From a virus (taxonomy: Duplodnaviria > Heunggongvirae > Uroviricota > Caudoviricetes), in the IMG/VR virus record IMGVR_UViG_2974695582_000001, positions 46,918 to 110,917 of that record: a DNA stretch of 64,000 nt. One strand, 5' to 3'. Below the pieces are notes generated by a model. The model was not told where the DNA came from. It did not search any database and saw only the letters and a list, made by a program, of their open reading frames with translations. Below are positions 2,916 to 52,154 of this stretch, in pieces (position 1 is the first letter of the stretch; the number at the start of each line of letters is the position of its first letter). Position numbers and translations under genes: made by a program.

Positions 2916-5900
2916 TTGTTAGGAGAAAAGGCTTTGGCTTATACAGAACTGCATTTGCACGATTACTATTCAACTCTGGACGGATTGAATTCTCCAGACG
3001 AGTACATGATTCGTGCCAAGGAGTTGGGAATGACCCATCTCGCACAGACAAATCACGGTACCCTGCTTGGTCACCGTGAATTCCAGAAGTCTGCAAAGAA
3101 CGCTGGAATTGTTCCGATTCTCGGTGTTGAGGCGTACATTTCGCCTACCGACCGATTCGACCGACGCGCAAAGAATAAGCGTACTGACGGAACGAACGTG
3201 TACAATCACCTTATCATTCTTGCTCAGGGTGAGACGGGAATGAAGACTCTTCAGACTCTCAATGAGAAGGCGTGGACTGAGGGATTCTATAACAAGCCAC
3301 GTATTGATATGGAGCTTCTTGAAGAGCACAATGATGGCCTTATCATTCTTTCTGGCTGTCTTAACTCGATGCTGTGCAAGGCAATTGAGGCGGGTAACGT
3401 TGAAGAGGCTCACAGGATTGCCCTTGAATTTCGGCGGATTCTTGGTGACAGGTTTTACATTGAAGTTCAGGCTCACAACCCTGTGTATATGAACCAGGCT
3501 CTATTCGAGATTGCTGACAAGAATGGAATCAAGCCTGTTGTTACTTCTGACTGTCACTATGCTCGTAAGGAAGACCTTTGGATTGAAGAGGCTATGCTCA
3601 TTCTGTCTACGAATCCAAAGTTCAGTCGAGACTTTGACTTTACCAAGTCTCAGAAGATGGACATGCTTGAGCGGTTCAATTATCTGTATCCAGACAGGGT
3701 CATGACCTTTGAGGAAATCCAGATTTACCTAAAGTCTGCTGAGGAGCAGCTTACGGATTTCTCAAGGAATGGTTTCGAGCGAGAGGATATTGTCAAGAAT
3801 ACAGAGGAAATTGCTTCTCGAATTGAGGAATACGCTTTCCATCAGAACCTTGACCTTCTTCCTAAGCCTAAGAATGGTAATCCAGACGAGTTGCTAGAAA
3901 AGAAGGCTCGGGCGGGTTTGCGTAATCGTGGTCTGGATAAGGACCCGGTATATGTAGAAAGGCTTGAGGAAGAGCTTGAAATCATCAAGTCAAAGGATTT
4001 CTCGACGTACTTCCTTGTTGTGGCTAATACGATTAAGTGGGCAAAGGACAATGAGATTCTTGTTGGTCCCGGCCGTGGTTCTGGTGCTGGCTCTCTTGTG
4101 AACTATGCTCTTGGAATTACAGAAGTTGACCCGATTAAGTGGGGTCTTCTGTTCTTCCGATTCATTAACCCAGAGCGAAATGACTTCCCTGACATTGATA
4201 CCGACTTTGAGGACCGTAGGCGTAACGAAATCAAGGACTATCTTACGAGAAAGTTCAAGCACGTTGCCTCTATTGCCACGGTTGGTTATTTCAAGGATAA
4301 GGGTGTTGTTCGAGACGCAGCACGAGTGTTCCGAATTGACCCGGCTGAAACAGATGAGGCGTTGAAGACCATCGCCACTTTTGAGGAGTATCAGACTTCA
4401 AAGGCTACTGAGGGGTATCGTAAGAAGTATCCTGAGGTAGAGAAGTTGGCGAATGAGCTTCGTGGTCGTATTCGTCAGACTGGTATGCACGCTGCTGGTA
4501 TTGTTATCTCTAAGGAGCCGATTGCTAACTTTGCTCCGATTGAGACTGCTGCTGACCCAAAGGATAAGACGGCTCCCCGTAGGGCTCTTGTGGCTCTGGA
4601 TATGAATGAGGCTGCTGACCTTGGTCTGATTAAGTTGGATGCACTTGGGCTTAAGACCCTTTCCGTGATGGGTGATGCGGTGAAGATGATTGAGCAGCGT
4701 ACTGGTCGAAAGATTGTCCTGACTGACATTCCTCTTGAGGATAAGAAGGTTTATGACATGATTTCGGCGGGTCACACAAAGGGTATCTTCCAGTGTGAGG
4801 CTGGTCCGTATACAGGACTCATCATGAATATGGGTGGTATCTCCTCCTTCGCTGAACTTGCAGCCTCTAACGCTCTTGTTCGTCCGGGTGCGATGAATAC
4901 CATTGGTGCTGAGTATATCGCTCGAAAGAATGGTGAATCTCCGGTTACGTATCCTCACGAGGATATGAAGTGGTTTACTGAAGAGACTTATGGTGAGATT
5001 CTTTATCAGGAGCAGGTTATGCTTACGATGACCGAACTTGCCGGAATGTCTATGGCAACCGCTGATAAGGTTCGTAAGATTATTGGTAAGAAGAAGGATG
5101 TCAGTGAATTTGAGCAGTACAAGGCTGAATTCGTTGAGGGTGCTTCAAAGAAGGTTTCTAAGGCTGTGGCTGAAAAGCTGTGGCACGACTTTGAGGCTCA
5201 CGCTGGTTACTCCTTTAACAAGAGTCACGCCGTGGCTTATTCCATGATTTCTTACTGGACTGCATGGCTCAAGACGTACTACCCAATTGAGTTCGTTTAC
5301 GCTATGATGAAGAACGAGAACGATAAGGATGTCCGTACCACTTACCTCATTGAGGCTAAGCGAATGGGTGTGAAGGTCAAGTTGCCTCACGTTAACCATT
5401 CCGACCTTGACTTCTCTGTGGAAGAGGATGGTATTCGATTCGGTCTTGCCAACATCAAGTTCATTTCGACCAATCTTGGTACCAAGTTGATTGAGGCTCG
5501 TCCTTATGAAAACTATGCTGCGCTTGAGGCGAAGGTTACTGAGAAGGGCAATGGGCTTAACATCAGGGTTCTCAAGGCTCTGAATGCAATTGGTGCAGCC
5601 ACGTTTGCTGATAATCCTAAGCGAGGAGATGAGCGACACTTCTTCTATGAGTATCTGAGTATTCCCGCTTTCGAAATTCCTGACATGCCTGAGGGTGTTC
5701 GTAATCAGTTCACTCCATTGAGCGCTTTCCGTGAAGATGAAACCAGTATCATTATGGGAATGGTCAAGAATGTGAAGCGTGGAAAGGGATGGTCTCGTAT
5801 TGAAGTTGTTGATGAAACTGGTGAGGCTTCATTCTTCCATAAGGAAGATACTCTGATTGCACCAGGTAATATGTACGCAATGCTGATTGCCAATAAGCGA

Positions 5901-20589: not shown

Positions 20590-20713
20590 TTTCGGGTCGG
20601 CAGGATGAGGGTTATCTAACCTACTATAAATTACACGCAATGGTAATTCCTGGTGGATTCCAGGGAGTGTGGTGACTATAACACTATCTCCCTCGCCAAT
20701 CACATATCCGAAT
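20590..20713 (+). ncRNA. Y RNA-like ncRNA (Ro60-binding type), locus 1
   Basis: 5' ttCGGGTCGGcaGGATGAGGGTTATCTAACc resembles the hY RNA GGUCCGAUGGUAGUGGGUUAUC motif. 3' cCCTCgccaatcaCATATCCGaat can pair with the 5' end. A TTGACA-N-TAGTAA promoter sits at 20550-20578. Confidence 0.5.
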
Positions 20714-20717
20714 ACAT

Positions 20718-20792
20718 TGGGGTATAGCTCGGTCTGGTGAGAGCACTCCGCTGATAACGGAGCGGTCGTGGGTTCAAATCCCACTGCCCCAA
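20718..20792 (+). tRNA. tRNA-Ile (anticodon GAT)
   Basis: Acceptor tggggta/tgcccca. Anticodon stem ctccg/cggag with loop ctgataa. T-arm gtggg-ttcaaat-cccac. Confidence 0.6.
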
Positions 20793-20793
20793 C

Positions 20794-20897
20794 TTTATGG
20801 GTCGGATGGAAACCTTTATCATAAGTTCAACTCTTATTATTCCCGCTCATGGGAATAGGGCGTGGTGCCCACTGGTTTACTGCAACATACCCATTAT
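20794..20897 (+). ncRNA. Y RNA-like ncRNA, locus 2
   Basis: 5' tttATGGGTCGGATGGaaacctttatca. 3' cATACCCATtat is complementary to the 5' end. Lies between tRNA-Ile and tRNA-Ser. Confidence 0.4.
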
Positions 20898-20984
20898 GGA
20901 AGGTCAATCCGATTGGCGACGGAACTTGTCTTGAAAACAAGCGAGGTGTGAAAGCCCTTAGGAGTTCGACTCTCCTACCTTCCG
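20898..20984 (+). tRNA. tRNA-Ser (anticodon TGA), type II
   Basis: Acceptor ggaaggt/accttcc (perfect). Anticodon stem cttgt/acaag with loop cttgaaa. Long variable arm. T-arm aggag-ttcgact-ctcct. Confidence 0.6.
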
Positions 20985-21167
20985 CTTTACCCTAAGGAGT
21001 AAAATTGACTGAGACAGAAAATGTCGGTCCTTCTTCCTATCAGCTAGCAATCATCCTTGCGCTTCAGAGCAAGCATGTGTATGCTAATACGGTAGATGAG
21101 AATGAGATTGCAAGACGACGTAAGGCAAGCAAGAGGGCGCGACTACAGCGCAGAGTAAATAGAAGGC

Positions 21168-21196
21168 TTGACACGACACGTCGCTCATGATAAGGT
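21168..21196 (+). promoter_or_regulatory. promoter TTGACAC-N17-TGaTAAGGT
   Basis: Same architecture as the 20186 promoter. Precedes tRNA-Asp. Confidence 0.45.
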
Positions 21197-21274
21197 TTTA
21201 ACAGTGCTGAGGGACCGGATGATTTCAGGTAGCACGCTGGTTGGGTATTTCCAGTCCTCACAAAATTCCCACAT

Positions 21275-21351
21275 GCCTCGTGGGGTTGCTAGGTTGTGGC
21301 CACTCCCCTGTCAAGGGAGACATCAGGCGGGTTCGATTCCCGTACGGGGCG
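21275..21351 (+). tRNA. tRNA-Asp (anticodon GTC), atypical D and variable regions
   Basis: Acceptor gcctcgt/acggggc. Anticodon stem ctccc/gggag with loop ctgtcaa. T-arm gcggg-ttcgatt-cccgt. Confidence 0.45.
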
Positions 21352-21376
21352 CTTTCGTAAATGAACAAAAGGAGTT

Positions 21377-21586
21377 ATGCTGATGGCAGCACGAGTTAAG
21401 AAGTTTGACCTTGTTGAGCTTGACAAGGACGGCTGGTTCTCTGCTAAGGTTAGTGGAAAGTTCCGGGGTCTGGTCGAGAAGACTGGACGAAGCAATTACA
21501 CACTTCATCTTGGCAAGGATGATGTAACTAACTTCAAGACTAAGAAGGCTCTTGAGACTTGGCTCACCGAGAAGTGGGCAGTTTAA
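21377..21586 (+). CDS. hypothetical protein
   Basis: 69-aa ORF after AAGGAG SD. Confidence 0.45.
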   Translation: MLMAARVKKFDLVELDKDGWFSAKVSGKFRGLVEKTGRSNYTLHLGKDDVTNFKTKKALETWLTEKWAV

Positions 21587-21610
21587 GTAAAACAACAAAA
21601 TATTGAAAGC

Positions 21611-21683
21611 GTTCGGGTCGGATGCATTCGTTTATCACTCATTGGCGACTAAATAACGATTGCTCTAACATATCCGTGCACAA
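21611..21683 (+). ncRNA. Y RNA-like ncRNA, locus 3 (compact, about 70 nt)
   Basis: 5' gTTCGGGTCGGATGcattcGTTTATCACTCATTGg resembles hY1 GUUAUCUCAAUUG. 3' aaCATATCCGtgcac pairs with the 5' CGGAT. Confidence 0.5.
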
Positions 21684-21687
21684 CTTC

Positions 21688-21849
21688 TAGCCCCTAAAGA
21701 TTTCGGGTCGGATGTTCTTTGGTTAACTCAATTGGAATGAAAAGTTCTGGGTTCGAATCCCAGCGGGTCCACTCTTGGGCCTGTAGTTTAACTGGCAAAA
21801 CTAAAACCCGAGGAACGCTTATATATCCGTGATTATCTTTAGGGGCTAA
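21688..21849 (+). ncRNA. YrlA-like Y RNA with embedded tRNA-like module, locus 4
   Basis: 13-bp terminal stem TAGCCCCTAAAGA/TCTTTAGGGGCTA. Inner TTCGGGTCGGATG...GGTTAACTCAATTGGAATG Y motif. tRNA-like T-arm ctgggttcgaatcccag followed by cgggtcc. 3' partner tATATATCCGtga. Followed by AAGCTT. Confidence 0.55.
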
Positions 21850-22498: not shown

Positions 22499-24115
22499 AT
22501 GTCTAATGCACTTGGTAAGTACGCCGGTAGCCAGAAGGCTGCAAAGGTTGCGACTCCTCAGACAAAGCGGACTCCGGGCCGTACGGATGAGGTAAAGAAC
22601 AACGCGGGCGGGTTTGTGTTTAAGGTTGACGACAAGTCTCGACTTGAGCGTTTCCTTATCCTTGGTACTGATAAGGGTACCTACTACGTTGGTGAGCAGA
22701 AGTTGACGGCTCAGAACGTTTCTTTCCTGAAGAACCTGGTTCAGAAGGATGAGCGTCTGGTTGTGGACACGCTTGTTGACGTTTCTGTAAATGGTCGTGC
22801 GCTTAAGAATTCTCCTGCGCTGTTCGCTCTGGCCACGGTTATGACGGAGGGCAAGGATAAGGCTTACGCTCGTGAGGCCGTTCAGAAGGTTGCTCGTACT
22901 TCTACCCACCTTTTCGAGTACGCACAGTACATCGATGACCTGGGTGGTTGGGGTCGTGCAAAGCGTCGTTCTGTCGCTGAGTGGTACGAGAACAAGTCTC
23001 TGGATACGCTTGCGTATCAGGCTGTTAAGTACCGTCAGAGGAATGGTTGGACGCACCGTGACCTGTTCCGTCTGTCTCACCCTCAGGGTGTGGACCAGGG
23101 TGTTGGTAACTTCATCCTTGGTAAGGACGCAGAGTCTGAGGTGGAAATTCTTAAGGGCTTCGCTGAGATGCAGTCTGCGACTTCGGTCAAGGACGTTATC
23201 AAGACGCTGGAGACTTTTAAGAACCTTCCGTGGGAGACCATCCCTACTCAGTTCCTCAAGGACGTGAAGGTGTGGAAGACTCTCTTCTACAATGGTCAGC
23301 TTCGTGGCCAGGCTCTCATTCGCAACATCACTCGACTCGCTCGAATTGGTGCGTTTGATGACATGGTTTTCGCAACTGACTACGCGAATGCAATTGCTAA
23401 CCAGGAAATGATTCAGAAGACTCGTCTTCACCCAATCAACTTCCTGAATGCGGTTGTTGTTCATGAGTACGGTCAGATTGACCGTAACGGCTACAGCATG
23501 TGGAGTGCCGGACGTAAGAAGGATTGGAAGTCTAATGGAAAGATTGTGGATGCTCTCAATGAGGGATTCCACATGGCGTTCAAGGCTGTCGAGCCTTCTG
23601 GCAAGAGGACTCTTGTTGCGACTGACGTTTCTGGCTCAATGAGTCAGAGCGCTATCGGACTCGACCTTTCTTGTGCTCAGGTTTCTGCGGCTGTTGCTAT
23701 GACGGTTGCTCGCACCGAGCCTTACAGTGACATTGTTGGCTTCTCTAGCAGCATTGTTGACTTGGGTATTACCGCAAAGAGTTCTTTTGCCGACGCAATG
23801 CGTAAGGTGAGTAACAGGAACTTCGGTGGTACGGATGCGGCTGCTGCAATTAAGTACGCTGACCAGAAGGGAATTCAGGTTGACACCTTCGTCGTTATCA
23901 CTGATAACGAGACGTGGGGCGGAAGCCAGAAGCCTTTCCAGGCACTTAAGCAGTACCGTCAGAAGACCGGAATCGATGCGCGTCTAGCGGTTCTTGGTGT
24001 TGCGTCTACGGACTTCAGCATCGCTGACCCAACTGACCGTGGTATGATGGACTTCGTTGGTTTCGATGCCAATGCGCCAAGGGCTCTTGCAGACTTCAGC
24101 GCTGGTCGTATCTGA
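22499..24115 (+). CDS. rsr: Ro60/TROVE-domain ribonucleoprotein (Rsr ortholog) with C-terminal vWA/MIDAS
   Basis: Direct similarity to the Ro60 TROVE core: RLERFLILGTDKGTYYVGEQKL versus human [22 protein letters not shown], plus PALFALA. vWA MIDAS motif VATDVSGSMS. About 538 aa from ATG 22499. Confidence 0.9.
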   Translation: MSNALGKYAGSQKAAKVATPQTKRTPGRTDEVKNNAGGFVFKVDDKSRLERFLILGTDKGTYYVGEQKLTAQNVSFLKNLVQKDERLVVDTLVDVSVNGRALKNSPALFALATVMTEGKDKAYAREAVQKVARTSTHLFEYAQYIDDLGGWGRAKRRSVAEWYENKSLDTLAYQAVKYRQRNGWTHRDLFRLSHPQGVDQGVGNFILGKDAESEVEILKGFAEMQSATSVKDVIKTLETFKNLPWETIPTQFLKDVKVWKTLFYNGQLRGQALIRNITRLARIGAFDDMVFATDYANAIANQEMIQKTRLHPINFLNAVVVHEYGQIDRNGYSMWSAGRKKDWKSNGKIVDALNEGFHMAFKAVEPSGKRTLVATDVSGSMSQSAIGLDLSCAQVSAAVAMTVARTEPYSDIVGFSSSIVDLGITAKSSFADAMRKVSNRNFGGTDAAAAIKYADQKGIQVDTFVVITDNETWGGSQKPFQALKQYRQKTGIDARLAVLGVASTDFSIADPTDRGMMDFVGFDANAPRALADFSAGRI

Positions 24116-29931: not shown

Positions 29932-30040
29932 CTTGGTGGTATCGGTTGAATACCCACAAAGGATAATCCGTATATCCTGGTAGACGCGCTTTCGCGGCGG
30001 GTTATCTGAATGTAAAGGAGTCACGTCCAATCAACCACTT

Positions 30041-30415: not shown

Positions 30416-30720
30416 CTTCAGTTCTGGTAAAAATCCAGTCTGAGTTTATACAGAGTTTGGAAGGTAAGCCGGTTCGATTCCGGCAGACTGATGGGTCAGG
30501 GCGCGGTTCGAGTCCGCTATATAAATATGGGTGCAAATAGGGTAGCTCCCGCCGAGTCAGGTTCGAATCCTGGCACTCTGTATAAAGCTTACAAGACACG
30601 GGGGCTTGGCCCGTCCTCCAATCATGAGTCTTGGGTCTCAGTCCAATCGAGATTTAGAGTTAACGGGCTTGCCAGGGGTAGCTTGGTTTCGACTTTGCTG
30701 GATGACATATGAACGCAACC
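30416..30720 (+). other. cluster of degenerate tRNA fragments / T-arm-like hairpins (no intact cloverleaf)
   Basis: Four GGTTCGA(A/T/G)TCC T-arm hairpins, at 30470, 30497, 30560 and about 30690. One has a perfect 7-bp acceptor-like pairing (cagtctg/cagactg) but only about 25 nt between acceptor and T-arm. Confidence 0.4.
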
Positions 30721-30883
30721 CTTCTTGGTCAAAGAAGTAAAACGGGCCAAAACAATAAATGCAAACTCTAAGAATGCATCTGCATACGCCCTTGCGGCGT
30801 AAGAGCCGGGTTTGTCGTTGACCTAGGAACAGAACAACGACTAGACAAAATGTGTAGATAATGTGTAAGACCCTTCAGTGTGA

Positions 30884-30912
30884 TTGACATGGTTGTGTAA
30901 CGGTTATATGCT
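30884..30912 (+). promoter_or_regulatory. promoter TTGACA-N17-TATGCT
   Basis: Drives the downstream small ORF. The 5'UTR contains a T-arm-like hairpin gcgggttcgactcccgc. Confidence 0.45.
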
Positions 30913-30968
30913 AGATAGTAAAGGACGCGGGTTCGACTCCCGCCTACTCCACACAGAAAGATAAGGTA

Positions 30969-35770: not shown

Positions 35771-36232
35771 ATGACAGAGAAAAGATGTAGCTTTCCAGAT
35801 TGCGAATACCCCTTCCTAGCGAAGGGGTATTGCAACAATCACTATCAGCAATCAAGGTCTGGTAGAGAGCTTGTTCCAGTAAGGCCAAGGTCAAAAAATG
35901 GTTCTGGAACGATTAACACAGATGGCTATAGAATCGTCTATAAGCCTGGCCATCCCAATTGCCAATCAAATGGTAGGATTGCCGAACATCGTTGGGTCAT
36001 GTCGGAAAGTCTTGGAAGACCTCTTGAGGAGTATGAAGAGGTTCATCACAAGAATGGTGACAGACTTGACAATCGCCTTGAGAATCTGGAACTATGGGTT
36101 CGTAGGCAGCCGCCTGGACAACGGGCGGAAGACTTGCTAGAGTGGGCATACGAAATCATTAGACGATATGGAGATGAAAATGACTCACGTTTCAGCAATC
36201 TTTTCAGTGGACGACCTGAACAAGGCAATTGA
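35771..36232 (+). CDS. HNH homing endonuclease (HNH_3-like)
   Basis: GYRIVYKPGHP...GRIAEHRWVM...EVHHKNGDRLDNRLENLEL. Confidence 0.65.
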   Translation: MTEKRCSFPDCEYPFLAKGYCNNHYQQSRSGRELVPVRPRSKNGSGTINTDGYRIVYKPGHPNCQSNGRIAEHRWVMSESLGRPLEEYEEVHHKNGDRLDNRLENLELWVRRQPPGQRAEDLLEWAYEIIRRYGDENDSRFSNLFSGRPEQGN

Positions 36233-37247
36233 GGACGGTTGGGTCAGGGTCCAGACGAATGAGGATAATACCCTCTCTATTTACAATTATACAGAAGCGA
36301 GCCAGTATAAGCGTTACTGGAATGATGTGACGCTGAATTGTCGGGGTTTGATTCTCGACAGCTACAATCACATTGTGGCACGTCCTTGGAAGAAGTTCTT
36401 CAATTTCGGTGAGCGTCCGCTTCTGTTTTCTACGGATGACCCAGTTGAGGTAACGGATAAGAAGGATGGCTCATTGGGTATTCTTTACCAGCACCCAATG
36501 ACTGGTGATTACCGAATTGCAACTCGTGGCTCTTTTCTTTCTGACCAGGCAATTCACGCAACAAACGTCTGGGATAACAAGTACAGCCACATTGCAGACC
36601 CGTGGCACGGAGTAACCTTCTTGTTTGAGATTGTGTACCCTGAGAACCGCATTGTTTTGGATTATGGTGAGACTGATGACCTTATCCTTCTTGGTGCAGT
36701 TCAGAATCAGTACGGTTGGTACTACGGTCCCAACGAGGCTGCGGGTATGCTCAACTGGACTGGCCCGGTCACAGAGGTCTTTGAGTACCGCACCACGAAC
36801 GACTGCTTCAAGGTGCATCGCTCAAATGCTGAGGGTCTGGTAATTCGGTGCGGTAGTGAGATGGTCAAGTTGAAGCAGGAGGACTACGTAGCTTTGCACA
36901 AGCTAGTTACGGGTCTGAACGAGCGGGCTGTGTGGGAGCGCTTGATGGCAGGTGAGAGTCGTGATACTATCTGTTCATCGCTTCCGGATGAGTTCCACGG
37001 ATTTGTTGACAAGGTGGCCGATGAGCTGGAGACTCAGTTCAAGGAGATTTACCACTCTTCTCACGTGAGTTACTGCGAGATTCTTAACAAGATGCCTGGA
37101 AAGTCGGCACTTCCTAAGAATGAGTGGCGTAAGTTGTTTGCATCATATGCGGTAAAGATGCCCAACTACGACCTTATATTCAATTACTTGGACAACCGTC
37201 CGGTTGCTGAGTCAATTTGGAAGATGATTCGTCCGAAGGGTGAGTAA
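36180..37247 (+). CDS. ATP-dependent RNA ligase, Rnl1 (T4 RnlA)-like
   Basis: Nucleotidyltransferase motif I VTDKKDGSLGILY (KxDGSL as in T4 Rnl1). 355 aa. A Pnk-like kinase lies downstream. Confidence 0.6.
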   Translation: MTHVSAIFSVDDLNKAIEDGWVRVQTNEDNTLSIYNYTEASQYKRYWNDVTLNCRGLILDSYNHIVARPWKKFFNFGERPLLFSTDDPVEVTDKKDGSLGILYQHPMTGDYRIATRGSFLSDQAIHATNVWDNKYSHIADPWHGVTFLFEIVYPENRIVLDYGETDDLILLGAVQNQYGWYYGPNEAAGMLNWTGPVTEVFEYRTTNDCFKVHRSNAEGLVIRCGSEMVKLKQEDYVALHKLVTGLNERAVWERLMAGESRDTICSSLPDEFHGFVDKVADELETQFKEIYHSSHVSYCEILNKMPGKSALPKNEWRKLFASYAVKMPNYDLIFNYLDNRPVAESIWKMIRPKGE

Positions 37248-37406: not shown

Positions 37407-37679
37407 ATGATGGATTACGAAAAGATTATTGATGGATATAACGACCTTCGTGAAACATGTCTTGTAATTGCTAAGCTTAACGATGAATTGATGGGTCCAG
37501 ATAGATGGCTGAAGTTTGCCATTCAGGATTCTGACATCACGCTGATGTTTACAGAGCGAGGCATCGTGTGCTATGGTAGTGCTTACACGACACAGACTAT
37601 GGACAACGAACACTTCAGTTTCATGATTCCGTTTGAATACATAGAGGAGTTTGAGGCAAATGCTAGAGCTGGTGATTAA
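37407..37679 (+). CDS. hypothetical protein
   Basis: 90-aa ORF after GGAGG. Confidence 0.45.
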   Translation: MMDYEKIIDGYNDLRETCLVIAKLNDELMGPDRWLKFAIQDSDITLMFTERGIVCYGSAYTTQTMDNEHFSFMIPFEYIEEFEANARAGD

Positions 37680-38085
37680 CCGGGGGATTCCGGGAAGCGG
37701 TAAGTCAACGTATGCTCGCAAGTGGGTATTCGATGGAACTCCGCTCAATCGTCGTGCTAGAGTTAACCGTGATGACATCCGTAAGCAGCTTTACGGAGTT
37801 GACTTCGGGGTTCCAGTTGAGGAGACTGCTGTAACTGCTGTCGAGTACGCTATGATTCGCTCTTTGCTTGAGCGCGGAGTGTCTGTTATTGTTGACGACT
37901 GCAACATCAGTCAGCGATACATTACTGCATTTACAAAGATTGCAAAGGAGTTTGATGCTGAGGTGAGGGTAAACCTTATCGATGTTGAGCTTGATGTTGC
38001 AATCCAGCGTAATCAGGGCAGGGAGCGTTTCGTTCCTGTCCATGTAATTGAGGACATGTATAGGCGACTTCAGGAGCAACTGTGA
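37651..38085 (+). CDS. polynucleotide kinase-like P-loop kinase (Pnk/zeta-toxin fold)
   Basis: Walker A GIPGSGKST. Walker B-like IVDDCN. 144 aa. Confidence 0.55.
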   Translation: MRQMLELVINRGIPGSGKSTYARKWVFDGTPLNRRARVNRDDIRKQLYGVDFGVPVEETAVTAVEYAMIRSLLERGVSVIVDDCNISQRYITAFTKIAKEFDAEVRVNLIDVELDVAIQRNQGRERFVPVHVIEDMYRRLQEQL

Positions 38086-50378: not shown

Positions 50379-50400
50379 ATAAACAAAGTTAGGATTAGCA

Positions 50401-50922
50401 ATGATTCAGATTGGTATTCGCGTCCGAGTTCTCGATAACTATTCTGGTGGTCTTGGAAATACGATTGGTCGTACTGGCAAGGTTCTTCGTGCTAGCTCGG
50501 AAGGTCTCTACCTCCTTGACATCAAGGGCAGTCGTAAGGCTTCCTGGGGTGACTACACCTACGAGCGAGACGTTATTGTGAAGGCTGACGAAATTGAGCC
50601 GGTCTCCTTCGACCTGAAGGATGCTCAGGGACGTAAGATTGAGCTTGGCGACAAGGTTGCTTACGGTCCTCTCGGTGGTGGTGTTACTATCGGTACTGTT
50701 GTTGATATCGATGAGCGCGAGGGGCGATACGGTTACAAGACTACGAAGTTCCGTCTTGAGACTAATGGTAAGGATTATTTCAACGATGGTGGTGACCGAA
50801 CGATTTCGGGCGGTCACCTTAAGACTTATCGTTGGTATGAGCACTCTGGACGATGTGTTATCATCGAAAAGAATCCGATTAATGCGGATGTGTTTGAACT
50901 GCGCTCGGTTCCTATGCCATGA
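50401..50922 (+). CDS. hypothetical protein (tandem KOW/SH3-like repeats)
   Basis: 173-aa ORF. Confidence 0.5.
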   Translation: MIQIGIRVRVLDNYSGGLGNTIGRTGKVLRASSEGLYLLDIKGSRKASWGDYTYERDVIVKADEIEPVSFDLKDAQGRKIELGDKVAYGPLGGGVTIGTVVDIDEREGRYGYKTTKFRLETNGKDYFNDGGDRTISGGHLKTYRWYEHSGRCVIIEKNPINADVFELRSVPMP

Positions 50923-51086
50923 AGAAGCCAAAGCCACTAGGAAAGGGAAACTACAGAGTTTGCCCTACTTGCGGAGGCCAAGGCGTTAAGGCTAATATGC
51001 GTAAGTATCCAAAGAGTCCAACAAATGATGCTGTCGTTTGGGAAGACTGCAAAACTTGCAAGACTGTTGGTTGGATTGAGGCTTGA
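50919..51086 (+). CDS. DnaJ-type zinc-finger mini-protein
   Basis: ATGA overlap. Contains CPTCGGQG...CKTCKTVG. Confidence 0.45.
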   Translation: MKKPKPLGKGNYRVCPTCGGQGVKANMRKYPKSPTNDAVVWEDCKTCKTVGWIEA

Positions 51087-51112
51087 CAGCCCTGGTCTGA
51101 CTGTGTTACAGT
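51084..51112 (+). promoter_or_regulatory. promoter TTGACA-N17-TACAGT driving a Y RNA plus tRNA-Gly
   Basis: -35 at 51084-51089. -10 at 51107-51112. The Y-RNA motif begins about 10 nt downstream. Confidence 0.45.
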
Positions 51113-51121
51113 AGATATATC

Positions 51122-51224
51122 GGGTCGGACGGATAGGGTTATCTAACAATCAATTGATGATGAGCCTTCGGGCAACCCTGCGGCGGGTATAGCCGCATCT
51201 CCCTTCCTCAACATATCCGATGTA
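51122..51224 (+). ncRNA. Y RNA-like ncRNA, locus 5
   Basis: atCGGGTCGGACGGATAGGGTTATCTAACAATCAATTGATGatgag resembles hY4 GGUCCGAUGGUAGUGGGUUAUC and hY1 ...AAUUGAUUG. Has an internal gcc-ttcg-ggc hairpin. 3' ACATATCCGATG pairs with the 5' TCGGA. Confidence 0.55.
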
Positions 51225-51227
51225 TTT

Positions 51228-51298
51228 GCGGGTGTAGTTTAATGGTAGAACAACAGACTTCCACTCTGTTAGCGGGGGTTCGATTCCCCCTACCCGCT
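51228..51298 (+). tRNA. tRNA-Gly (anticodon TCC)
   Basis: Acceptor gcgggtg/tacccgc. D tagtttaatggtagaac. Anticodon stem acaga/tctgt with loop cttccac. T-arm ggggg-ttcgatt-ccccc. Confidence 0.6.
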
Positions 51299-51310
51299 CG
51301 AAACGAATGT

Positions 51311-51345
51311 CCCCGCTGGTAAAAACTGGCGGGGCTTCGTTGTTT
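51311..51345 (+). terminator. Rho-independent terminator
   Basis: CCCCGCtggtaaaaactgGCGGGGcttcgttgtttc. Confidence 0.5.
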
Positions 51346-51363
51346 CTATGGTAAGATGGAGTC

Positions 51364-51561
51364 ATGGAAGAAATCGTATCCTACAGCTTTGCTGTAGACA
51401 TCTACAAGAATGATTCTGGAACCTTCACCTATGGTGTCTTCCAGGAGATTGAGTCAGATGAGGATGACGAGCTACAGTTGCTTGAGACTGGTGAAGCTGA
51501 TACACTTGCTGAAGCAGCCGAGATTGCTGGTCGTAGCATCAAGACATTGTTCGTCGTCTGA
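51364..51561 (+). CDS. hypothetical acidic protein
   Basis: 65-aa ORF. Confidence 0.4.
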   Translation: MEEIVSYSFAVDIYKNDSGTFTYGVFQEIESDEDDELQLLETGEADTLAEAAEIAGRSIKTLFVV

Positions 51562-51604
51562 ATTTTATGGCAAATTTTGACGAGGGTTCGTAAAGGGCCT
51601 TCTA

Positions 51605-51676
51605 TCCCCCTTAGTGTAATTGGCAGCACGACTGTCTTTGGAACAGTTAGTTCGAGTTCGAGTCTCGCCGGGGGAG
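51605..51676 (+). tRNA. tRNA-Gln (anticodon TTG)
   Basis: Acceptor tccccct/cggggga. D gtgt-aattggca-gcac. Anticodon stem actgt/acagt with loop ctttgga. T-loop ttcgagt. Confidence 0.5.
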
Positions 51677-51700
51677 CAACCATAACAAAAGGAGAAGTTA

Positions 51701-51937
51701 ATGGTTATCGCAGCAACTATCATTTGGATTATCGGAATGGTAATGGTTCTTGTCTTCGGATTTGCAGTTGCCCTTACTGGGGAACTTCATGAAGAGGAAC
51801 CTCTTGATGGGCTTTTCAAGAGTTGGGGCGGAACGAGGTTTTACAGTCTGTACTTCCTTATCCTGATTCTTTGTCTGCCCATTTGGCCACTCATCCTGGT
51901 TTCTATCTGGATTGTTGCCCTGGTTAGGGGATGGTAA
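51701..51937 (+). CDS. hypothetical membrane protein
   Basis: 78 aa with 2-3 TM helices. Confidence 0.45.
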   Translation: MVIAATIIWIIGMVMVLVFGFAVALTGELHEEEPLDGLFKSWGGTRFYSLYFLILILCLPIWPLILVSIWIVALVRGW

Positions 51938-51938
51938 G

Positions 51939-52154
51939 ATGATTTTCCTGTGGATTTATCTGGCCGGGTTGACGTTCTGCTTGCTCGGTGGTACAGTTAC
52001 TGCATTCATTGAGAAGCGTAGGTTCAAGGAAGACAGGGTTTCTGCTACCGCATGGGCTTCAATTGCTCTTTATTCTATCTGGTGGCCGTTCATTGTCGTT
52101 CTTAATATTATCTGTCTTCCATTCGAATTCTTCGACAGAAGGAATGGTCGATAA
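51939..52154 (+). CDS. hypothetical membrane protein
   Basis: ATG after AGGGGATGG. 71 aa with two TM helices. Confidence 0.4.
   Translation: MIFLWIYLAGLTFCLLGGTVTAFIEKRRFKEDRVSATAWASIALYSIWWPFIVVLNIICLPFEFFDRRNGR

What the first reader, a model, noticed from the sequence alone, without database searches (positions are those of the whole stretch)
51084..51298. Promoter-driven Y-RNA-like gene co-transcribed with tRNA-Gly(TCC)
A TTGACA-N17-TACAGT promoter is followed within about 10 nt by atCGGGTCGGACGGATAGGGTTATCTAACAATCAATTGATG. This is the clearest match to the human Y RNA 5' consensus in the window, including the AAUUGAU segment. The 3' strand ACATATCCGATG ends 4 nt before tRNA-Gly. So Y RNAs here appear to be made as Y-tRNA dicistrons, which links their biogenesis to RNase P/Z processing.
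Basis: seen in the sequence. Interest (0 to 1): 0.8.

Follow-up and report, generated by a model that had tools for sequence, protein, structure and literature searches.

The report
Phage Y RNA fused to tRNA-Gly
A Streptomyces phage that encodes its own Ro60 protein also carries an unannotated Y RNA gene with its own promoter, placed 4 bases before a glycine tRNA so that tRNA processing probably cuts it free; it is one of five such RNAs in the genome.

Summary
The window is Streptomyces phage Comrade (cluster BE2), bases 46918-110917.

- **Transcription unit.** Bases 51083-51344 form a compact unit: a sigma-70-type promoter, a ~107-nt stem-bulge-stem RNA (51117-51223), a 4-nt AUUU spacer, tRNA-Gly(UCC) and an intrinsic terminator.
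- **Family.** The RNA is one of exactly five paralogues in the Comrade genome. All share a closing module: 5' CGGGUCGGA-N-G, a covarying upper stem, UUAUC, and 3' CAACAUAUCCG.
- **Link to Ro60.** The other four paralogues lie 0.7-1.9 kb upstream of the phage's Ro60 gene (TROVE plus Ro60-vWA domains). One of them carries a YrlA-type tRNA-like domain.
- **Independent test.** A covariance model built without any ortholog of the finding still finds it (33.8 bits, E 9.5e-6).
- **Same module elsewhere.** It sits directly upstream of Ro60 genes in a BE1 phage and in an actinobacterial chromosome.
- **Conservation.** The promoter-Y-tRNA-Gly(UCC) unit is kept across BE2 and BE1 phages even though the apical domains differ completely. 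Y modules abut tRNAs at 0-4 nt in many relatives.

I conclude it is a real phage Y RNA, probably released from a Y-tRNA precursor by RNase P. Expression, Ro60 binding and cleavage are inferred, not shown. It is a new variant of a known kind and moderately interesting.

The parts
51083..51088 (+). -35 hexamer TTGACA. It overlaps the TGA stop codon of gp183 (51084-51086).
   Evidence: Promoter scan. A -35-like hexamer is present upstream in every ortholog.
51104..51112 (+). Extended -10, TGT-TACAGT. The spacer to the -35 is 18 nt.
   Evidence: In nine of the ten BE2 orthologs the -10 ends exactly 8 nt before CGGG. This predicts a start at about A51117-A51119.
51117..51227 (+). Y RNA 'Y5' (the finding): the predicted primary 5' end through to the RNase P site.
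   Evidence: R1 hit 51118-51223, 70.4 bits. Independent R2 hit 33.8 bits, E 9.5e-6. Minimum-free-energy fold closes the 5' and 3' ends, z = -2.1. Not annotated in GenBank.
51117..51125 (+). Lower stem, 5' strand AUAUCGGGU. It pairs with 51215-51223.
   Evidence: RNAalifold predicts 9 pairs in all 8 orthologs, with C-G to U-G variation at pair 2. Across paralogues, CG changes to UA at the helix base.
51122..51131 (+). Candidate Ro60-binding motif GGGUCGGACG. Compare the bacterial motif GNCGAAN0-1G and the metazoan motif GGUCCGA.
   Evidence: Motifs are from PMC4201824. The sequence is invariant in the Y-Gly orthologs. BE1 orthologs carry the exact consensus, GUCGAACG or GUCGAAUG.
51131..51138 (+). 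Upper stem, 5' strand GGA(U)AGGG. It pairs with CCCUUCC at 51201-51207.
   Evidence: All 8 upper-stem pairs show compensatory changes across 49 distinct family members. Cognate arm duplexes average -9.7 kcal/mol against -4.3 for non-cognate arms.
51139..51143 (+). UUAUC motif. It corresponds to the YUAY motif that begins the loop in YrlA RNAs.
   Evidence: Invariant in A1, A3 and A5. YUAY is described in PMC4201824.
51144..51200 (+). Apical (effector) domain. It contains an AAUUGAUGA segment, a GCC-UUCG-GGC hairpin (51164-51173) and a GCGGC-N7-GCCGC hairpin (51180-51196). No T arm or D arm is present.
   Evidence: The domain is entirely different in Gilson-type and Annadreamy-type orthologs. 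No YrlA or tRNA hit falls here at E<=10.
51201..51223 (+). 3' strand: upper stem CCCUUCC, linker UCAACAU, and lower stem AUCCGAUGU.
   Evidence: The CA(A/C)CA(U/C)AUCCG block is conserved in the family.
51224..51227 (+). AUUU spacer, which is the pre-tRNA 5' leader. U lies at position -1.
   Evidence: The spacer is 3-8 nt in orthologs and always ends in U.
51228..51299 (+). tRNA-Gly(UCC). No CCA is encoded.
   Evidence: ARAGORN. Rfam tRNA 71.9 bits. Annotated in GenBank as gene 184.
51311..51344 (+). Intrinsic terminator: a 10-bp G+C-rich hairpin followed by a T-rich tail.
   Evidence: Conserved in orthologs, with a compensatory G-C to U-A change in Patelgo and a different hairpin in Beuffert.
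20590..20714 (+). Paralogue Y1. It ends 3 nt before tRNA-Ile(gat).
   Evidence: R1 32.8 bits, not in the seed. R2 30.7 bits. Adjacency.
20795..20897 (+). Paralogue Y2. It fills the gap between tRNA-Ile and tRNA-Ser(tga), with 1 nt and 0 nt to spare.
21611..21680 (+). Paralogue Y3, a short form.
21701..21833 (+). Paralogue Y4. It has the same closing module around a YrlA-type T arm, acceptor-like hairpin and D arm.
   Evidence: R1 28.3 bits, not in the seed. Rfam YrlA RF02553 gives a partial hit of 28.2 bits at 21742-21802, below the gathering score of 69.
22499..24115 (+). Phage Ro60 ortholog (gp103), the presumed protein partner.
   Evidence: Pfam TROVE 2.6e-38 and vWA_Ro60 3.2e-56. Matches D. 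radiodurans Rsr (2NVO, E 2e-99) and Xenopus Ro60 (1YVP, E 1e-88). GenBank note: 'Ro-like RNA binding protein'.

Best explanation
Bases 51117-51227 encode a genuine phage Y RNA. It is a small non-coding RNA whose paired 5' and 3' ends form the binding platform for the phage's own Ro60 protein (gp103). Its variable apical domain presumably engages a partner or gates Ro60.

The proposed pathway has four steps:

1. Host RNA polymerase transcribes the RNA from its own sigma-70-type promoter, starting at the base of the Y stem.
2. The transcript continues into tRNA-Gly(UCC), giving one ~230-nt precursor that ends at the hairpin terminator.
3. RNase P cleaves at G51228. This single cut creates both the mature tRNA 5' end and the Y RNA 3' end (...GAUGUAUUU-OH).
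4. The Y RNA is then free to form an RNP with Ro60. By analogy with D. radiodurans, Salmonella and Thermus phage phiLo, that RNP probably also includes host PNPase, for processing or quality control of structured RNA during infection.

**Shown by sequence analysis:** the conserved module, covariation, family membership, genomic linkage to Ro60, and the conserved promoter-Y-tRNA-terminator layout.

**Inferred:** transcription start, co-transcription, RNase P cleavage, Ro60 binding and downstream function.
For: 1. **Ro60 partner is present.** gp103 has TROVE and Ro60-vWA domains and matches solved Rsr and Ro60 structures at E 2e-99 and 1e-88.
2. **Family membership is not circular.** Model R2, built without any Y-Gly sequence, finds 51118-51223 at 33.8 bits, E 9.5e-6. 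It finds the Y-Gly orthologs in five other BE2 phages at 32-41.5 bits.
3. **The genome has exactly five members.** Four lie 0.7-1.9 kb upstream of Ro60 on the same strand. One of these, Y4, wraps the same closing module around a YrlA-like T/AS/D domain.
4. **The same module sits directly upstream of Ro60 genes elsewhere.** This holds in BE1 phage Genie2, where the exact GNCGAANG motif is present, and in the Spongiactinospora rosea chromosome.
5. **The structure covaries.** 94.5% of cells are paired, against 37-52% in slid controls. All 8 upper-stem pairs show double changes, and 0 of 500 shuffles reach the observed covariation score (seed alignment). RNAalifold recovers both stems independently.
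6. **The YrlA 5' motifs are present.** GUCGGACG corresponds to GNCGAAN0-1G, and UUAUC corresponds to YUAY (PMC4201824).
7. **The transcription unit is conserved.** The layout is -35/-10, a fixed 8 nt, the Y RNA, 3-8 nt ending in U, tRNA-Gly(UCC), then a terminator. It is seen in Comrade, Patelgo, Francob, Gilson, MeganTheeKilla, Forrest, Kenrey, Blueeyedbeauty, Annadreamy and Beuffert and in BE1 phage EGole. This holds despite three unrelated apical domains and two different tRNA-Gly sequences.
8. **Y modules abut tRNAs at 0-4 nt throughout the group**.
9. **There is precedent.** Phage Y RNAs are known (PMC4201824). Thermus phage phiLo Yrl1 and Yrl2 bind phiRo60 and host PNPase (PMC12135203).
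Against: - There are no expression, end-mapping or binding data.
- This copy lies 27 kb from the Ro60 gene. That is outside the within-4-kb criterion used to call bacterial Y RNAs.
- The motif differs from GNCGAA at one position (GUCGGA).
- No Rfam Y-family model reaches its gathering score. RF00019 gives no hit, RF01656 scores 28.7 against 38, and RF02553 gives no hit on this copy.
- The single-sequence fold is only modestly better than shuffles (z = -2.1).
- No terminator separates gp183 from the RNA, so read-through transcription from upstream is also possible.
Confidence: 0.8

Rival explanations
1. The module acts in cis rather than as a free Y RNA. While still attached, it brings Ro60 (and PNPase) to the nascent phage pre-tRNA as a folding or quality-control checkpoint. 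The released stem-loop would then be a by-product.
For: Y modules are glued to tRNAs at 0-4 nt in many phages, and the Y-tRNA-Gly(UCC) pairing is conserved across BE1 and BE2. From established knowledge, Ro60 is known to bind misfolded non-coding RNAs. The phage carries about 35 tRNAs, a tmRNA, an RNA ligase and a PNK.
Against: Two of the five paralogues (Y3, Y4) are not next to any tRNA. Characterised Y RNAs act in trans. RNase P cleavage is normally fast. No data are available.
Confidence: 0.12
2. It is a structured 5' leader or spacer of the tRNA array that has nothing to do with Ro60. For example, it could be a processing or stabilising hairpin that protects the precursor from RNase J or E.
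For: It sits in a tRNA leader position. Three of the five copies are tRNA spacers. No Rfam Y family reaches threshold.
Against: The same closing module encloses a YrlA-like domain next to the Ro60 gene. It lies directly upstream of Ro60 genes in an unrelated bacterium and in a BE1 phage without an adjacent tRNA. It carries the published Ro-recognition and YUAY motifs. In the loci examined here, the module was found only in genomes that encode Ro60.
Confidence: 0.06
3. It is a chance resemblance or a non-functional relic of a duplicated Y RNA.
For: The copy is distant from the Ro60 gene. The apical domain is not conserved between phage lineages.
Against: The closing module, promoter spacing, tRNA linkage and terminator are all maintained across phages whose Ro60 proteins are only about 58% identical. 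Compensatory changes keep both stems intact.
Confidence: 0.02

Closest known systems
Bacterial and phage YrlA-class Y RNAs (Rfam RF02553; Chen et al. 2014, PMC4201824)
   Same: Encoded in a genome with a Ro60 ortholog. The 5' and 3' ends pair. A GNCGAAN0-1G-like motif lies near the 5' end and is followed by a stem and YUAY. A paralogue in the same genome (Y4, 21701-21833) has the T arm, acceptor-like hairpin and D arm. Actinobacteriophages are known hosts of such RNAs.
   Different: This copy has no tRNA-like domain and no RF02553 hit. It lies 27 kb from the Ro60 gene and has its own promoter. It is fused head-to-tail to a real tRNA. The motif is GUCGGA rather than GNCGAA. Both strands of the helix, including the 3' CAACAUAUCCG block, are conserved, whereas only the 5' strand is recognisable in Salmonella and M. 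smegmatis YrlA.
Thermus phage phiLo Yrl1/Yrl2 with phiRo60 (PMC12135203), and Salmonella YrlB
   Same: Phage-encoded or short Y RNAs defined by a 5'-3' stem, an internal bulge carrying the CGAA-type motif, and a stem-bulge-stem layout. They were shown to bind phage Ro60 and to form complexes with host PNPase.
   Different: Those RNAs sit immediately upstream of the Ro60 gene. No linkage to tRNAs is reported for them.
Metazoan Y RNAs (RF00019) and nematode stem-bulge RNAs (RF01656)
   Same: Stem-bulge-stem architecture. A GGUC(C/G)GA motif on the 5' strand. GGGUUAUC immediately after the upper stem. RF01656 gives recurrent sub-threshold hits on three divergent Y-Gly orthologs: 28.7, 33.5 and 29.8 bits.
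   Different: RF00019 gives no hit. RF01656 stays below its gathering score of 38. The gene has a bacterial sigma-70-type promoter rather than Pol III. The 3' end is set by a downstream tRNA rather than by an oligo-U terminator.
tRNA-guided 3'-end formation of non-coding RNAs, such as MALAT1-mascRNA and plant tRNA-snoRNA dicistrons (recalled from established knowledge)
   Same: A non-tRNA RNA is transcribed together with a tRNA or tRNA-like element. RNase P or RNase Z cleavage at the tRNA boundary then defines its end.
   Different: Those systems are eukaryotic and unrelated to Ro60. Here the cleavage is inferred only.

Membership tests
Y RNA (Ro60-associated non-coding RNA) | The genome encodes a Ro60/Rsr (TROVE) protein. 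| tested here: met
   gp103 at 22499-24115: TROVE 2.6e-38 and vWA_Ro60 3.2e-56. Matches 2NVO at E 2e-99.
Y RNA (Ro60-associated non-coding RNA) | The 5' and 3' ends pair into a bulged helix that carries the Ro-recognition motif (GGUCCGA, or GNCGAAN0-1G in bacteria). | tested here: met
   The helix is supported by covariation. The motif is GUCGGACG, one purine transition from the consensus. BE1 orthologs have the exact GUCGAACG or GUCGAAUG.
Y RNA (Ro60-associated non-coding RNA) | Physically bound by Ro60 in vivo or in vitro. | not testable with these tools
   Requires RNA immunoprecipitation or a gel-shift assay with gp103.
Y RNA (Ro60-associated non-coding RNA) | Expressed as a discrete, stable small RNA. 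| not testable with these tools
   No transcriptome data were available. The promoter and terminator are only predicted.
Bacterial Y RNA, by the operational criterion of Chen et al. 2014 | Within 4 kb of the Ro60 gene, on the same strand. | tested here: not met
   The strand is the same, but the RNA lies 27 kb downstream of gp103. The four paralogues at 20590-21833 do meet the criterion.
YrlA (Rfam RF02553) | A tRNA-like domain: T arm, acceptor-like hairpin and D arm. | tested here: not met
   No RF02553 or tRNA hit falls inside 51117-51223 at E<=10. The apical domain has two unrelated hairpins. Paralogue Y4 does have the domain (28.2 bits partial).
YrlA (Rfam RF02553) | A YUAY motif following the 5' stem. 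| tested here: met
   UUAUC at 51139-51143, invariant in the family.
Metazoan Y_RNA (Rfam RF00019) | A match to the family covariance model. | tested here: not met
   No hit at E<=10 in a 501-nt scan.
Nematode sbRNA ceN72-3_ceN74-2 (Rfam RF01656) | A match at or above the gathering score of 38 bits. | tested here: not met
   28.7 bits, E 7.5e-4. Orthologs score 33.5 and 29.8 bits. This is a resemblance, not membership.
Stanwilliamsviridae phage Y-module family (models R1 and R2, defined here) | A significant match to a model built without the candidate. | tested here: met
   R2: 33.8 bits, E 9.5e-6.
tRNA-linked polycistronic non-coding RNA released by RNase P | Directly abuts the 5' end of a tRNA, with no intervening promoter or terminator. 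| tested here: met
   4-nt AUUU spacer. 3-8 nt in all orthologs. No promoter-like site lies between them.
tRNA-linked polycistronic non-coding RNA released by RNase P | Cleavage at the tRNA boundary generates the RNA end. | not testable with these tools
   Requires 3' RACE or an in vitro RNase P assay.

The most novel reading that the evidence does not exclude
The Y modules are more than Y RNAs that happen to sit next to tRNAs. They would be an integrated part of a phage tRNA production line. In this reading, Ro-binding stems interleaved with tRNAs at 0-4 nt recruit phage Ro60 (and host PNPase) co-transcriptionally to monitor or trim the phage's own pre-tRNAs. This interleaved layout would also be the evolutionary source of YrlA-type Y RNAs, whose permuted T arm, acceptor hairpin and D arm look like a captured junction between two tandem tRNAs.
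Probability: 0.15. Interest if true: 0.8.

Novelty: new variant of a known kind. Interest (0 to 1): 0.55.

Why it matters
How Y RNAs are made and what they do in bacteria and phages is still poorly defined. Known bacterial examples were found only next to rsr, and most carry a tRNA-like domain.

This phage group shows a different arrangement in three respects:

- Each genome carries five to seven Y RNA paralogues that share one Ro-binding platform but have different apical domains.
- Many of them are hard-wired into tRNA transcription units, so the tRNA maturation enzymes would define their ends.
- At least one has an independent promoter far from the Ro60 gene.

This matters for three reasons. 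It provides a genetically tractable system (Streptomyces griseus with SEA-PHAGES isolates) for testing Y RNA biogenesis, the division of labour among paralogues, and the long-suspected evolutionary link between Y RNAs and tRNAs. It shows that searches limited to within 4 kb of rsr miss real family members. It also flags about 115 Ro60-encoding Streptomyces phage genomes in which these RNAs are unannotated or mis-called as small ORFs.

Tried and rejected
- **Rfam at gathering thresholds.** This returned only tRNAs and the tmRNA. RF00019 (metazoan Y RNA) gave nothing even at E<=10.
- **Other exact GGGTTATC sites.** Those at 29999, 34155 and 52528 were inspected. They have no 5' motif or 3' partner, and two lie in coding sequence. 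They are absent from the filter-off covariance-model scan.
- **The minus-strand ORF 51150-51365 (71 aa).** Rejected. It is antisense to a tRNA, all annotated genes nearby are on the + strand, and the region varies through RNA-type compensatory changes.
- **Neighbouring proteins.** gp182, gp183 and gp185 gave no informative Pfam hits, apart from a weak CxxC zinc-finger match in gp183.
- **The genome contigs pattern scan.** Only 1 of 80 loci (Spongiactinospora rosea) contained a full module.
- **The second IMG/VR pattern scan.** It was similarly noisy: 8 of 79 loci contained real modules.
- **Alignment limits.** MAFFT mis-registers the upper stem in some members that have bulges or longer linkers, such as L005 7632 and the Annadreamy and Blueeyedbeauty Y3 RNAs. 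These were left out of the seeds, and the model alignment was used instead.
- **Literature access.** Two Y RNA reviews (PMC10870794, PMC6047535) and the supplementary tables of Chen et al. were not available. I therefore could not check whether any Streptomyces phage Y RNA or any Y-tRNA linkage has been listed before.
- **Mycobacteriophage Catera.** It has a YrlA-like hit upstream of its Ro60 gene but no abutting tRNA.
Full report
**Identity of the window.** Bases 50400-52000 are 100% identical to Streptomyces phage Comrade (NC_048728.1; Stanwilliamsviridae, Loccivirinae, Gilsonvirus; cluster BE2). Window position x corresponds to record position x + 46917. The window holds 31 tRNAs and a tmRNA, all on the + strand. 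GenBank annotates nothing between gp183 (window 50919-51086) and tRNA-Gly(tcc) at 51228-51299.

**Checking the observation.**
- TTGACA is at 51083-51088 and overlaps the gp183 stop codon.
- The spacer is 18 nt.
- The -10 TACAGT at 51107-51112 is preceded by TG, making it an extended -10.
- CGGGTCGGACGGATAGGGTTATCTAACAATCAATTGATG starts 8 nt after the -10.
- The 3' strand ACATATCCGATG(U) ends at 51223.
- AUUU follows, and the tRNA begins at G51228.
- A 10-bp G+C-rich hairpin with a T-rich tail lies at 51311-51344, just after the tRNA.

One promoter-like match means little on its own: 15 were found against 6.9 +/- 2.5 expected in 6 kb. The comparative evidence below is what makes it convincing.

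**A protein partner exists.** gp103 (22499-24115, + strand) carries the GenBank note 'Ro-like RNA binding protein'. It has TROVE (2.6e-38) and Ro60-vWA (3.2e-56) domains. It matches D. radiodurans Rsr (2NVO, E 2e-99), Xenopus Ro60 (1YVP, E 1e-88) and human RO60. tblastn finds Ro60 homologues in 357 phage records: 212 from Mycobacterium phages, 115 from Streptomyces phages, and smaller numbers from Gordonia, Microbacterium and others.

**The RNA belongs to a family.** A pattern scan of IMG/VR and inspection of the window turned up many RNAs that share four features: 5' (C/U)GGGUCGG(A/C)NG, a variable stem, (G/U)UUAUC, and 3' CA(A/C)CA(U/C)A(U/C)CC(G/A).

A covariance model (R1; 12 seed sequences; 13 base pairs) finds exactly five members in the whole Comrade genome:
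- Y1, 20590-20714
- Y2, 20795-20897
- Y3, 21611-21680
- Y4, 21701-21833
- Y5, 51118-51223 (the finding)

With filters off, the five score 28-78 bits and the next hit scores 12.5 bits. Y1 and Y4 were not in the seed.

Because Y5 was in the R1 seed, I built a second model (R2) without any Y-Gly ortholog. R2 still finds Y5 at 33.8 bits, E 9.5e-6 in 206 kb. It finds the Y-Gly orthologs of five other BE2 phages at 32-41.5 bits.

**Structure.** The 5' and 3' ends pair into a 9-bp lower stem (51117-51125 with 51215-51223). An asymmetric internal loop follows, with CGGA(C) on the 5' side and UCAACAU on the 3' side. Next comes a 7-9-bp upper stem with a bulged nucleotide (51131-51138 with 51201-51207), then UUAUC and a 57-nt apical domain.

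The covariation evidence is as follows.
- On the seed alignment, 94.2% of cells pair, against 30-53% when the partners are slid. Seven of 13 pairs show changes on both sides, and 0 of 500 shuffles reach the observed covariation score.
- On 49 distinct family members aligned to the model, 94.5% pair against 37-52% for slid partners, and all eight upper-stem pairs show compensatory changes. This alignment leans towards the model.
- An alignment-free check agrees. Duplexes between the two arms of the same RNA average -9.7 kcal/mol. Arms taken from different members average -4.3 +/- 2.8.
- RNAalifold on the eight Y-Gly orthologs recovers both stems independently.

**Why this is a Y RNA and not just a hairpin.**
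- Four of the five paralogues lie 0.7-1.9 kb upstream of the Ro60 gene on the same strand. This is the published hallmark of bacterial Y RNAs (PMC4201824).
- Y4 encloses a T arm (CUGGGUUCGAAUCCCAG), an acceptor-like hairpin and a D arm within the same closing module. Rfam YrlA aligns to these at 28.2 bits, below its gathering score of 69.
- The 5' strand carries the two motifs reported as conserved in YrlA RNAs. GNCGAAN0-1G appears here as GUCGGACG. YUAY appears here as UUAUC.
- In BE1 phage Genie2, two R1 hits with the exact motifs GUCGAAUG and GCCGAAGAG lie immediately upstream of the Ro60 gene.
- In the chromosome of Spongiactinospora rosea, an R1/R2 hit lies about 135 nt upstream of a TROVE/Ro60-vWA gene on the same strand.

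**How far the eukaryotic resemblance goes.** Rfam Y_RNA gives no hit at E<=10. The nematode stem-bulge RNA family RF01656 is regarded as the nematode counterpart of Y RNAs (that statement is from my own knowledge). It gives sub-threshold hits on Comrade (28.7 bits), Blueeyedbeauty (33.5) and Annadreamy (29.8) Y-Gly RNAs, whose apical domains are unrelated to each other. The shared features are the GGUC(C/G)GA strand, the upper stem and GGGUUAUC. Y5 itself has no tRNA-like domain.

**The transcription unit.** Ten BE2 phages from three lineages share one layout. The lineages are the Comrade/Patelgo/Francob type, the Gilson/MeganTheeKilla/Forrest/Kenrey type, and the Annadreamy/Blueeyedbeauty/Beuffert type. 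The layout is:
- a -35/-10 pair whose -10 (TACAGT, TAGTAT, TAAGAT or TATGAT) ends exactly 8 nt before CGGG in nine of the ten (the Kenrey upstream sequence differs)
- the Y RNA
- a 3-8-nt spacer ending in U
- tRNA-Gly(UCC)
- a hairpin terminator, which shows a compensatory G-C to U-A change in Patelgo and is replaced by a different hairpin in Beuffert

The apical domains of the three types cannot be aligned. Two different tRNA-Gly sequences are combined with them in mosaic fashion. The linkage is nevertheless kept.

BE1 phage EGole belongs to a different subfamily, and BE1 Ro60 proteins are only about 58% identical to Comrade's. It has TTGACA-N17-TAAAGT, then 7 nt, then a Y RNA beginning GUGGGUCGAACG..., then 2 nt (model boundary) and tRNA-Gly(UCC).

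A start about 7 nt after the -10 places the 5' end at the first base pairs of the Y stem.

**Y modules and tRNAs are interleaved generally.**
- In Comrade, Y1 ends 3 nt before tRNA-Ile. Y2 fills the space between tRNA-Ile and tRNA-Ser, with 1 nt and 0 nt to spare.
- Gilson has the order Y, tRNA-Ile, Y, Y, Y, tRNA-Ser.
- A metagenomic phage contig (L201) has six Y modules among nine tRNAs, all but one within 10 nt of a tRNA or another Y module.
- Every tRNA that follows a Y module has U at position -1. From my own knowledge, this suits bacterial RNase P.
- Mycobacteriophage Catera has a YrlA-like hit upstream of its Ro60 gene, but no tRNA abuts it.

**Most likely mechanism.** Host RNA polymerase starts at about A51117. 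It transcribes the Y RNA and tRNA-Gly as one precursor that ends at the terminator. RNase P cleavage at G51228 then releases a Y RNA of about 110 nt with a short single-stranded 3' tail. For Y2, the 5' end would come from 3' processing of tRNA-Ile, and no CCA is encoded there. The Y RNA then binds gp103 through the conserved helix.

By analogy with D. radiodurans and Salmonella (PMC4201824) and with Thermus phage phiLo (PMC12135203), the RNP probably recruits host PNPase or gates Ro60. Different apical domains would give the five paralogues different partners or timing.

All steps from transcription onward are inferred.

**Rivals.** Three alternatives were considered: cis-acting recruitment of Ro60 to the pre-tRNA, a Ro-independent leader hairpin, and a relic. 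The last two fit poorly with the module's occurrence upstream of Ro60 genes without tRNAs, and with its maintenance by compensatory change.

**Novelty.** Phage Ro60 proteins and Y RNAs are known from mycobacteriophages, CcrColossus, Bacillus phage G and Thermus phiLo. Genome announcements for BE phages mention the Ro-like protein but no Y RNA. Some phage records annotate small ORFs over Y1.

I rate this a new variant of a known kind. It is a tRNA-domain-less Y RNA paralogue with its own promoter, far from rsr, whose 3' end is set by an abutting tRNA. It belongs to a multi-paralogue family interleaved with tRNAs.

Noticed in passing
window 20590-21833: Four further unannotated Y-like RNAs (Y1-Y4) lie upstream of the Ro60 gene. 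Y1 precedes tRNA-Ile by 3 nt. Y2 exactly fills the tRNA-Ile to tRNA-Ser gap. Y3 is a minimal 70-nt form. Y4 is YrlA-like, with T and D arms.
   Followed up: yes
window 21690-21701 and 21835-21846: Y4 is enclosed by an additional 12-bp outer inverted repeat (GCCCCTAAAGAT / ATCTTTAGGGGC) followed by GCTTTTGT. This could be an RNase III-type processing stem or the terminator of the Y3-Y4 unit. It is conserved in Gilson, L009, L010 and L012.
   Followed up: partly
window 51151-51162; family alignment A4: A semi-conserved A(A/U)UUG(G/A) segment lies 8-13 nt after UUAUC in all Y-Gly orthologs, despite their unrelated apical domains. It occurs in 17 of 48 family members. Its function is unknown.
   Followed up: partly
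window 36207-37247, 37660-38085, 30675-30952: The phage also encodes an RNA ligase, a polynucleotide kinase and a tmRNA, alongside Ro60, the Y RNAs and 31 tRNAs in the window. Together these look like an RNA repair and quality-control toolkit.
   Followed up: no
window 50919-51086: gp183 is a 55-aa protein with CxxC motifs and a weak match to the DnaJ central zinc-finger domain (E 2.4e-4, below threshold). Its stop codon overlaps the -35 of the Y5 promoter. The gene is absent from Gilson-type phages.
   Followed up: partly
L030 4109-4182 (-), Spongiactinospora rosea NZ_QMEY01000008.1: A chromosomal RNA with the same closing module (GCGGGUCGAAUG...GGUUAUC...CCCAUAUCCGCG) lies about 135 nt upstream of a TROVE/Ro60-vWA gene. 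A second weak hit lies at 3927-4066.
   Followed up: partly
L004 6514-6603 (Gilson gp98), and homologous annotations in Stigma, SparkleGoddess, Belfort and Karp: A small 'hypothetical protein' ORF is annotated just upstream of Y1 in Gilson; in other phage records such ORFs lie under the Y1 promoter-and-RNA region. In Comrade the same stretch is left unannotated. These ORF calls may be spurious or may overlap the Y1 promoter.
   Followed up: no
window 20898-20983: tRNA-Ser(tga) is reported by Rfam as tRNA-Sec, at exactly the gathering score (47.1 against 47). ARAGORN and GenBank call it tRNA-Ser. This is probably a long-variable-arm artefact.
   Followed up: no
L026 3563-3636 and 3699-3776 (Mycobacterium phage Catera): A weak R2 hit (19.7 bits) lies next to a partial YrlA hit (36.1 bits), both upstream of the Catera Ro60 gene. 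This suggests tandem Y RNAs in cluster C mycobacteriophages as well.
   Followed up: no
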